Positions 62,776 to 64,000 of a stretch of DNA of 64,000 nt are shown piece by piece. Source of the stretch: Stylophora pistillata (taxonomy: Eukaryota); contig NW_019217785.1 of assembly GCF_002571385.2 (NCBI RefSeq), forward strand, positions 1,724,163-1,788,162. The letters are read 5' to 3'. The notes below the pieces were generated by a model that saw only the letters and a list, made by a program, of their open reading frames with translations, had not been told where the DNA came from and searched no databases. Position numbers and translations under genes: made by a program. Numbering within the stretch: position 1 is the stretch's first letter; every line of letters begins with the position of its first letter.

Positions 62776-63097
62776 TCTGTTATAGTTAGCTCAGTCTTAG
62801 GGTTGATGCTTTTGTAGTTATGCCGTTTCTCTTGAGTCAATGAACCTTGCTTGAAATAAAGTACAAGTGCTGACCAGTTTCTCCTCAGTCATAAGTTCTA
62901 AGACCTTGTGGTTCTATAGTAAGGTACTCACTGACTATTAGTTTGGTAAGGCTGAACAGGAAAATATTTGGCTCTCAGTCATGATGCTTAGGGTCCATAC
63001 TGTATGCCATAACCTTAAGCAAAATGCTTCCTGTTTGGCCCTCCCAATTATTGCTCCATAGAGAGTGTAGCGCACAAGCAGCAACATAATCAGGATT

Positions 63098-63389
63098 CGT
63101 ATGATGCATGATCCTCGCAGTAGAGAGCGCTATTTATGCAATAGCGAAAATCAGACCTGAAAAAAAAAAAAAATTGTACAGGATTCAAACCAAGTTGGCT
63201 TGTTAGCTCAATTGGTAGAGCGCTGCACTAGTATCGCAGAGGTCAGTGGTTCGAGTCCCGTACAGGCCTGATTTTTTTCAGGTCTGATTTTCGCTATTGC
63301 ATAAATAGCACTCTCTACTGCGAGGATCGTGCATCATACGTATCTAATTCCGCAGTTCAAAATATATGAACTTCATATATTCATTGTAT
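63098..63389 (+). mobile_element. tRNA-cored repeat with inverted 5' piece and 12-bp TSD
   Basis: tRNA-like domain at 63197-63269; inverted copy of the tail at 63098-63190; TSD ATAATCAGGATT at 63086-63097 and 63390-63401. Confidence 0.85.
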
Positions 63390-64000
63390 ATAATCAGGAT
63401 TAGAAGAATATATAGGGGGTGCGAATTCTTGAATTCATCACTTTTTATCACAATGCATTGCATTTAACCAGAGTGTACTGTGCTATGCTTGTTGTGTTTA
63501 TTGTATTGCATTGTATGGTGTTTCTACTCTAAGGACATTTCCCATAATTATATACTCAATTGTGTTGTAAATTCTACTCAGTCTTAAGTAAAGACAAATC
63601 AACTAATTGCAAGTGTTGTACTATGGTAAATCTACCATCTTGATCACTGAATGAAGGACAGTTGAATTAGAGCAAAGAAAGGAATCACTTGATCAATGAA
63701 TAACTGTGCCTTATGTAAGTAGACAGGCTGGTAAGCTGGCAGAAGAAGTGTTGATAATCCTGTGCAACTCCTGCCATTTGCTAATGCTTTTTTAAAAGAT
63801 TTAAAAATCTTCTATCTTCAAAGTCAAGTTCTTATTGGGACACCTCTAAATGACTCTCCTTTGCAATGTGATAGTAAGGGTTAGTTTTACTACTGAAACA
63901 GGTAGACTGTTTTTTTTTTTTTCGGAGATGCATGAAACAGTTGCTGCTGGGGAGAAACATATTTGAATCAAGCTCATGTGATCTATCCCAGACACCTCAA

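What the first reader, a model, noticed from the sequence alone, without database searches (positions are those of the whole stretch)
63086..63401. Independent second insertion repeats the same inverted architecture
A separate locus with a different TSD (ATAATCAGGATT, 12 bp) again has an inverted tail piece followed by a sense tRNA plus tail. The inverted piece starts at nearly the same position (..TATGATGCA) and the sense arm ends at nearly the same position (..CATTGTAT) as in the 22.2-kb copy. Fixed endpoints at two loci argue for a mechanistic rule of integration (defined RNA end, template switch) rather than chance or misassembly. The older copy at 9715-9915 also ends in a short inverted piece.
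Basis: seen in the sequence. Interest (0 to 1): 0.7.

Follow-up and report, generated by a model that had tools for sequence, protein, structure and literature searches.

The report
Penelope-pasted tRNA repeat in coral
This is one of thousands of copies of a small tRNA-bearing repeat in a probable coral genome whose back-to-back insertions end at two fixed points, likely because it borrows the copying enzyme of a Penelope-like retrotransposon with which it shares a predicted RNA stem-loop.

Summary
The insert is one copy of a ~248-nt tRNA-Thr-headed tandem unit (8,452 exact hits of a 25-mer). In 38 of 39 back-to-back copies with a target-site duplication (TSD, mostly 12-14 bp), one arm ends at unit position ~146 (site A) and the other at ~195 (site B); inner junctions vary. 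Empty paralogous sites at three other loci carry one TSD copy; no empty allele was seen at this locus. A protein-coding Penelope-like element (PLE) in the same genome shows the same A+B pairing in 9 of 9 copies with a TSD. It shares a predicted stem-loop around site A, with three compensatory pairs. That motif was defined after the fact, and plain alignment is not significant. Best reading: a non-autonomous, hammerhead-free retroposon; a PLE enzyme likely nicks both target strands and primes one cDNA at each site. Fold-back copying cannot explain 18 of 39 copies. The architecture is the known PLE signature. This scan already reached the Penelope reading on other DNA of this genome (three notes). 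Beyond their summaries: strict A+B pairing and a candidate partner.

The parts
63086..63097 (.). Left target-site duplication, 12 bp
63098..63192 (-). Short-end arm: unit u145 (site A, outer end) back to u51; the T-run next to the tRNA is expanded
63190..63389 (+). Long-end arm: unit u242 through the tRNA to u194 (site B, outer end); 3-nt overlap with the other arm
63197..63269 (+). tRNA-Thr(AGT)-like head, with mismatches in the anticodon and T stems
   Evidence: 47.6 bits
63272..63278 (+). T7 run directly after the tRNA; resembles a Pol III terminator (established knowledge); length 7 in 333 of 350 matches
63317..63361 (+). Predicted 6-bp stem (63317-63322 with 63351-63356) with a 28-nt loop that holds site A, followed by TCAAA; motif shared with the PLE terminal repeat
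63343..63389 (+). 'Tail' between site A and site B, including a 19-nt hairpin (63362-63380) that the PLE tail lacks
63390..63401 (.). Right target-site duplication, 12 bp
22169..22790 (.). Second young copy: 9-bp TSD (22169-22177, 22782-22790), A arm 22178-22492 (-, more than one unit), 69-nt filler from the unit, B arm to 22781 (+)
9713..9913 (-). Old copy, 79% identical, with a 16-nt inverted piece; ends not at the fixed sites, no TSD found
43649..44907 (.). Decayed PLE insertion with the same back-to-back A+B architecture and a 13-bp TSD; member of the candidate partner family

Best explanation
The insert is a copy of a non-coding, ~248-nt, tRNA-headed tandem repeat that is likely pasted in by the reverse transcriptase/GIY-YIG enzyme of a Penelope-like element (PLE), most likely the family with which it shares a predicted stem-loop. 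SHOWN: back-to-back arms with tRNA-sense 3' ends pointing outward; one outer end at u141-149 (A) and one at u191-199 (B); variable inner ends; a 12-14 bp AT-rich TSD that is single at empty paralogous sites; the same layout in a protein-coding PLE family of this genome. INFERRED: (1) The template is the tRNA-sense strand of a multi-unit or circular RNA that runs through the T7 tract; its polymerase is unknown. (2) The enzyme binds the stem-loop and cuts both target strands about 12-13 nt apart, leaving 3' overhangs. (3) One 3' end primes cDNA inside the loop (A), the other about 49 nt downstream (B), or about 30 nt if the 19-nt hairpin loops out, which matches the 31-34 nt of the PLE. An asymmetric enzyme dimer would explain the strict A+B pairing. 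(4) Both cDNAs stop at variable points and are joined by microhomology or short filler, and fill-in gives the TSD.
For: Ends: A at u141-149 in 39 of 39 and B at u191-199 in 38 of 39 TSD-bearing two-arm copies; TSD 12-14 bp in 31 of 39; TSD GC 0.26. No A+A (5) or B+B (4) copy has a TSD. Five more A+B pairs split by a gap or spacer share 12-14 bp TSDs (6 of 7 pairs tested have a TSD). Reads and contigs: loose ends with unrelated flanks pile up at 63342 and 63389 in all 4 runs. Empty paralogues with one TSD copy: L047 (1 site, 13 bp), L059 (7 sites, 12 bp), L091 (26 matches, some the same site in overlapping loci, 14 bp). PLE control: RT and GIY-YIG matches (both below Pfam cut-offs); 9 of 9 distinct two-arm copies with a TSD (10-16 bp) pair the short end with the long end. 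Shared motif: stems ACTGCG/CGCAGT and ACCCGG/CCGGGT differ at three pairs and stay paired; loops 28-30 nt with GATC, then TCAAA; 0 matches in 22.6 Mb of shuffled sequence. With the tRNA family's stem base excluded, the pattern has 670 genome hits against 5 for the reversed control, and by eye the 100 listed all resemble that PLE terminus. Literature: PLEs form partial tandems, an inverted 5'-truncated copy and a 30-40 bp tail at one end (PMC8557442, passages). A purified Poseidon enzyme cuts and extends both strands, starts internally at two sites that bound the tail, one in an AC-rich stem-loop, and is predicted to be a dimer (PMC11167929, parts 1-2 of 4).
Against: The partner link rests on a motif defined after seeing both sequences; local alignment of the two ends is not significant (P 0.13-0.20). 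None of 40 other GIY-YIG loci has a homologous end downstream, and only 90 matches from 150 of 1,590 candidates were scored. 22 of 61 two-arm copies lack a TSD, 6 of them A+B; 9 are A+A or B+B. About half of the position-picked elements appear as single arms, mostly without a TSD, some next to assembly gaps. In vitro, PMC11167929 saw no difference in start site between the two strands, so strict pairing is not shown biochemically. The T7 tract should stop Pol III before the end sites. RNA reads show both strands about equally and no pile-up of molecule ends. No empty allele was seen at this locus (189 joints and 37 loose ends not shown). Symmetric, fold-back-like centres are enriched: 7 of 39 against about 2 expected.
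Confidence: 0.8

Rival explanations
1. PLE-driven, but with a single priming event: the cDNA folds back and copies itself, and the endonuclease cuts the hairpin at the second fixed site.
For: 7 of 39 copies have near-symmetric centres (P about 0.004; 5 of 33 without N, P about 0.03); 14 of 39 junctions show microhomology. The two arms of a copy are closer to each other (3.6% different) than to other copies (7.9%; n=34). PMC8557442 suggests endonuclease resolution of an intermediate as the source of the tail.
Against: In 18 of 39 copies (16 of 33 without N) neither arm is contained in the other, so neither can be its template.
Confidence: 0.09
2. An ordinary tRNA SINE moved by a LINE, with L1-style twin priming producing the inversion.
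For: tRNA head, variable-length TSD, 5' truncation and inversion.
Against: No poly(A) or simple-repeat 3' end. The second priming site is fixed, not random. The long arm stops near site A in only 4 of 39 copies, 3.1 expected by chance, whereas contiguous twin priming predicts enrichment. The unit is tandem and the arms cross tRNA +1 freely. Twin priming is described from recall.
Confidence: 0.05
3. A DNA-level mechanism, such as a fold-back/MITE-like or rolling-circle element, in which A and B are cleavage sites.
For: Long inverted arms, tandem arrays and internal hairpins.
Against: Asymmetric ends, TSDs of variable length, 5' truncation spread across the unit, and the same layout in a retroelement of the same genome.
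Confidence: 0.04
4. Assembly artefact.
For: The assembly has 5,513 pieces, many arms abut N gaps, and array copy numbers are unreliable.
Against: Both junctions are bridged in independent short-read contigs with different flank alleles. Locus-specific TSDs are single at empty paralogues.
Confidence: 0.02

Closest known systems
EN+ Penelope-like elements, Penelope/Poseidon clade (PMC11167929, parts 1-2 of 4 and supplements 1 and 3; PMC8557442, passages)
   Same: Partial tandems, 5' truncation, inverted copy, two 3' end sites bounding a tail, AT-rich targets, first site in a stem-loop.
   Different: No ORF, no canonical hammerhead core, a tRNA head, and a tail of about 49 nt instead of 30-40 because of an extra hairpin.
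Animal non-LTR retrozymes (PMC7229834, passages; bioRxiv 10.64898/2026.07.22.740005, part 1 of 5 and passages)
   Same: Non-coding tandem units of 220-250 nt in corals, low GC, TSDs longer than 4 bp, self-paired fold (z -3.9), proposed dependence on PLEs.
   Different: Retrozymes are defined by a type I hammerhead, which was not found here. A tRNA-like module is present instead. Circular RNA was not tested.
Non-autonomous Chlamys PLEs such as MRC1 (PMC8557442, passage)
   Same: Non-coding, head-to-tail, moved by a PLE; the Naiad/Chlamys clade lacks canonical hammerheads.
   Different: They share 3' sequence with an autonomous family. Here only a structural motif is shared, and no tRNA head is mentioned in the passages read.
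Schistosoma SINE-like hammerhead repeats (PMC6765202, passage; the primary paper was not held)
   Same: Tandem units thought to be Pol III-transcribed, in which the upstream unit transcribes the next.
   Different: They carry a hammerhead; PLE-type inverted arms and tails are not mentioned in the passage read.
Canonical tRNA SINEs (recalled)
   Same: tRNA-derived head, TSD.
   Different: Tandem unit, internal fixed ends, back-to-back arms, no A-rich tail, T7 directly after the tRNA.

Membership tests
Non-autonomous PLE-mobilised element | Head-to-tail partial tandems with 5' truncation | tested here: met
   the tandem junction is also in reads
Non-autonomous PLE-mobilised element | Inverted 5'-truncated copy joined at the 5' end | tested here: met
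   26 of 53 position-picked elements are -/+ and none is +/- at its outer arms
Non-autonomous PLE-mobilised element | Tail extension at one end only | tested here: met
   A+B in 38 of 39 TSD-bearing copies; about 49 nt, longer than the 30-40 reported
Non-autonomous PLE-mobilised element | 3' end shared with an autonomous PLE of the same genome | tested here: inconclusive
   Alignment not significant; structural motif shared and specific, but defined after the fact
Non-autonomous PLE-mobilised element | Reverse transcription by the PLE enzyme | not testable with these tools
   Needs biochemistry
Autonomous PLE | ORF with RT and GIY-YIG domains | tested here: not met
   The unit is 248 nt, too short for such an ORF
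Non-LTR retrozyme | Type I hammerhead ribozyme in each unit | tested here: not met
   No CTGANGA core on either strand of the doubled unit; Rfam finds only tRNA, plus chance snoRNA hits at E 3.5-7.8
Non-LTR retrozyme | Tandem units of 150-450 nt | tested here: met
   248-nt period
Non-LTR retrozyme | Circular RNA monomers | not testable with these tools
   Reads across the tandem junction could come from genomic tandems
Canonical tRNA SINE | tRNA-derived head | tested here: met
Canonical tRNA SINE | Fixed 5' start at the tRNA head and a poly(A) or simple-repeat 3' end | tested here: not met
   5' ends are spread over the unit; 3' ends lie at two internal sites without an A-tail

The most novel reading that the evidence does not exclude
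A SINE-like class served by Penelope enzymes instead of LINEs: a ribozyme-free, tRNA-headed unit that carries a structural copy of a Poseidon-type loading stem-loop. Its insertions, and those of its partner, record a general rule: an asymmetric PLE dimer primes one target nick inside the loop and the other at the tail end, which would explain both the inverted repeats and the one-sided tail of PLEs.
Probability: 0.45. Interest if true: 0.75.

Novelty: new variant of a known kind. Interest (0 to 1): 0.52.

Why it matters
How PLEs make their tandem and inverted insertions and one-sided tails is stated as an open question (PMC8557442, passages). This family supplies thousands of short natural products, a pairing rule that can be counted, and a roughly 80-nt candidate recognition element with natural compensatory variants, all testable in the existing in vitro assay (PMC11167929). 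It also means that thousands of apparent tRNA-Thr genes in this genome are mobile-element copies; one coral paper's repeat table lists over 20,000 'tRNA' repeats in two species (PMC12005156, passage), though identity with this family was not tested. The insertion at 63 kb is itself an ordinary member of the family.

Tried and rejected
Single arms holding a whole number of units looked like a defined RNA end at u150; most abut assembly N gaps, so this was rejected. An alternating SNP in array L031 and identical units within arrays might suggest rolling-circle copying; not used, because multi-unit regions may be collapsed by the assembler. One versus two RNA templates per insertion: unresolved; L070, L118 and L044 hint at two but are old, gapped or lack a TSD. 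Partner search by end homology: 30 GIY-YIG loci by BLAST and 40 more by local alignment gave no homologous end. The window repeat at 35.3 kb shares the PLE tail but lacks the stem and has no TSD above 6 bp; not pursued. A second PLE family (Neptune-like, label recalled) also has two end sites about 93 nt apart, but only 3 two-arm copies could be scored: 1 short+long with an 11-bp TSD, 1 long+long without, 1 truncated. The pattern for further stem variants gave 10 hits against 9 for the control, so nothing above chance. Empty allele at this locus: none among the rows shown for six samples. The ~9-kb inverted pair L121/L122 has no ORF of 100 aa and lies beside an N gap. Pfam found nothing for 5 of 5 window ORFs. 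Paper searches listed no description of a tRNA-headed, PLE-mobilised coral repeat or of strict A+B pairing. Repbase, Dfam and most subscription papers were not searchable, so this is weak evidence of absence. Supplement 2 and the GenBank file of PMC11167929, and bioRxiv supplements, were not seen and may bear on the pairing claim.

Full report
Observation. The finding is as described: a 12-bp direct repeat (63086-63097, 63390-63401) frames an inverted arm and a sense arm that carries a tRNA-Thr(AGT)-like sequence. To compare copies I numbered a natural 248-nt unit from array L015, with u1 as the first tRNA base. The 63-kb copy has outer ends at u145 and u194; the 22.2-kb copy at u149 (+3 ambiguous) and u194, with a 9-bp TSD. 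The old 9.7-kb copy has a 16-nt inverted piece but ends at u170 and u6, without a TSD. Contigs of public runs bridge both outer junctions (3 of 3 contig runs; left junction in 4 of 4 runs), with flank alleles unlike the assembly in most runs. Several holder runs are labelled coral metagenome, so the host is probably a coral.

Family. A 25-mer from the tRNA head has 8,452 exact matches in the 398-Mb genome and 0 for the reversed control. Copies occur as head-to-tail units of 247-251 nt. Array lengths are not reliable, because many arms abut N gaps. I used two samples. The first was picked by similarity: 64 of 80 loci, 16 overlapping duplicates dropped. The second was picked by position: all places among the first 100 pattern hits, 53 elements. 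Pieces under 60 nt and elements at locus edges were left out of the counts.

Ends. In the position-picked sample 39 of 74 outer ends lie at u136-154 (A), 23 at u186-204 (B) and 12 elsewhere; 11 would fall in A or B by chance. Inner ends are spread across the unit. Of 61 distinct two-arm copies, 39 have a TSD of 9 bp or more (null 4 of 120). Of these, 38 pair A with B and one pairs A with u178. A lies at u141-149 (u145-147 in 29 of 39), B at u191-199, and the TSD is 12-14 bp in 31 of 39. The A arm is on the left in 20 copies and on the right in 19. The 22 copies without a TSD are 6 A+B, 5 A+A, 4 B+B and 7 with one other end; 5 of the 9 A+A or B+B copies have N nearby. Reads agree: loose ends with unrelated flanks pile up at 63342 (u147) and 63389 (u194) in all four runs. 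Three insertions into other repeats have empty paralogues with a single TSD copy of 13, 12 and 14 bp. No empty allele was seen at the 63-kb locus itself.

Control in the same genome. Window 43662-44894 is a decayed retroelement with the same layout and a 13-bp TSD. Relatives carry open frames with RT and GIY-YIG matches below the Pfam cut-offs. I call the family Poseidon-like from recalled motifs, not from a call. Among its 30 loci, 9 of 9 distinct two-arm copies with a TSD pair a short end with an end about 31-34 nt longer; a tenth shows the pairing without a scored TSD. The search favoured one arm per locus; the second arm was unselected. This matches the published PLE signature (PMC8557442, passages) and the two internal start sites of the anole Poseidon enzyme, which cuts and extends both strands and is predicted to dimerise (PMC11167929, parts 1-2 of 4).

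Candidate partner. The ends of the tRNA unit and the PLE do not align significantly (P 0.13-0.20). They do share a predicted structure: a 6-bp stem (ACTGCG/CGCAGT against ACCCGG/CCGGGT, three pairs changed on both sides), a 28-30-nt loop with GATC near its start and site A about 6-11 nt before the 3' strand, then TCAAA. The tRNA unit adds a 19-nt hairpin, which accounts for its longer tail; a second subfamily keeps a hairpin there with a changed sequence, although its predicted fold does not form the 6-bp stem. The strict descriptor had 301 matches in the fetched loci and 0 in 22.6 Mb of shuffles. With the tRNA family's stem base excluded it has 670 genome hits against 5, and the 100 listed look like this PLE lineage. 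The descriptor was defined after the fact, so I put the specific partner at about 0.6. The letters of supplementary figure 1 of PMC11167929 (extracted in file order) suggest a similar stem around an A/C-rich loop with a different sequence.

Mechanism. Both arms point their 3' ends outward, which is what two cDNAs primed from the two 3' overhangs of a staggered cut would give (inference). Fold-back copying requires one arm to lie within the other; this fails in 18 of 39 copies, although symmetric centres are enriched (7 of 39), so fold-back or a shared RNA 5' end may explain a minority. Contiguous L1-type twin priming predicts that the long arm stops near A; it does so in 4 of 39, with 3.1 expected. 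Junctions show overlap in 14 copies, are blunt in 2 and have filler in 23. The two arms of a copy usually share subfamily variants, which fits one RNA or one active source; this is unresolved. The weak step is transcription: a T7 tract follows the tRNA in 333 of 350 matches, yet arms cross it freely. The template must be a read-through, Pol II or circular transcript. RNA reads cover both strands about equally and show no pile-up of ends.

Comparison and novelty. It works like a non-autonomous PLE and resembles coral retrozymes in size and tandem form. It fails the retrozyme test (no hammerhead core) and the canonical SINE test (no fixed start, no A-tail). Nine paper searches listed no description of this family or of the pairing rule; Repbase and Dfam could not be checked. 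I recorded my reading; one search then showed that three earlier notes of this scan had reached the same Penelope reading on other pieces of this genome. They are AI notes, not independent support. Their short summaries mention two fixed ends but not the strict pairing or a partner motif.

Verdict. Observation confirmed; interpretation partly supported; a new variant of a known kind; interest 0.52.

Noticed in passing
window 43649-44907: Decayed Poseidon-like PLE (label recalled) with back-to-back arms, a one-sided tail and a 13-bp TSD; used as the control.
   Followed up: yes
window 62578-62777: A lone piece of the same PLE terminal repeat about 310 bp left of the finding; a third, older piece lies near 8830-8943.
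   Followed up: no
window 35320-36466: An element with 272-nt inverted arms starts right after a 24-nt stretch identical to the PLE tail; no stem motif and no clear TSD. Possibly a DNA element inserted into a PLE tail.
   Followed up: partly
L121:960-1475 and L122:3910-4489 (G000:C2, about 355-364 kb): Two family copies 9 kb apart share 513 nt at 100% identity in inverted orientation, including another tRNA-derived repeat; beside an N gap, no ORF. Probably an assembly artefact or a local inverted duplication.
   Followed up: partly
L133-L153: A young Neptune-like PLE family (label recalled), about 99% identical, with two 3' end sites about 93 nt apart, far longer than the 30-40 bp tail reported.
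   Followed up: partly
L042:2329-2793, L046:1937-2008: Short tandem repeats of unit fragments (about 54-nt and 23-nt periods) at the inner ends of copies, suggesting repeated slippage or template jumps during joining.
   Followed up: no
window 50689-50760: A weak tRNA-like match (29.6 bits) of another repeat family.
   Followed up: no
window 3043-33573: Several probable exons of a large + strand gene (for example 4376-4798, 11659-12099, 29130-29615, 33070-33573); no Pfam match for the four tested; from recall they resemble spatacsin, untested.
   Followed up: partly
window 45096-45635, 47899-48385, 53123-54770, 59742-60147: Four further short elements with inverted arms (MITE-like); no convincing long TSD found.
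   Followed up: partly
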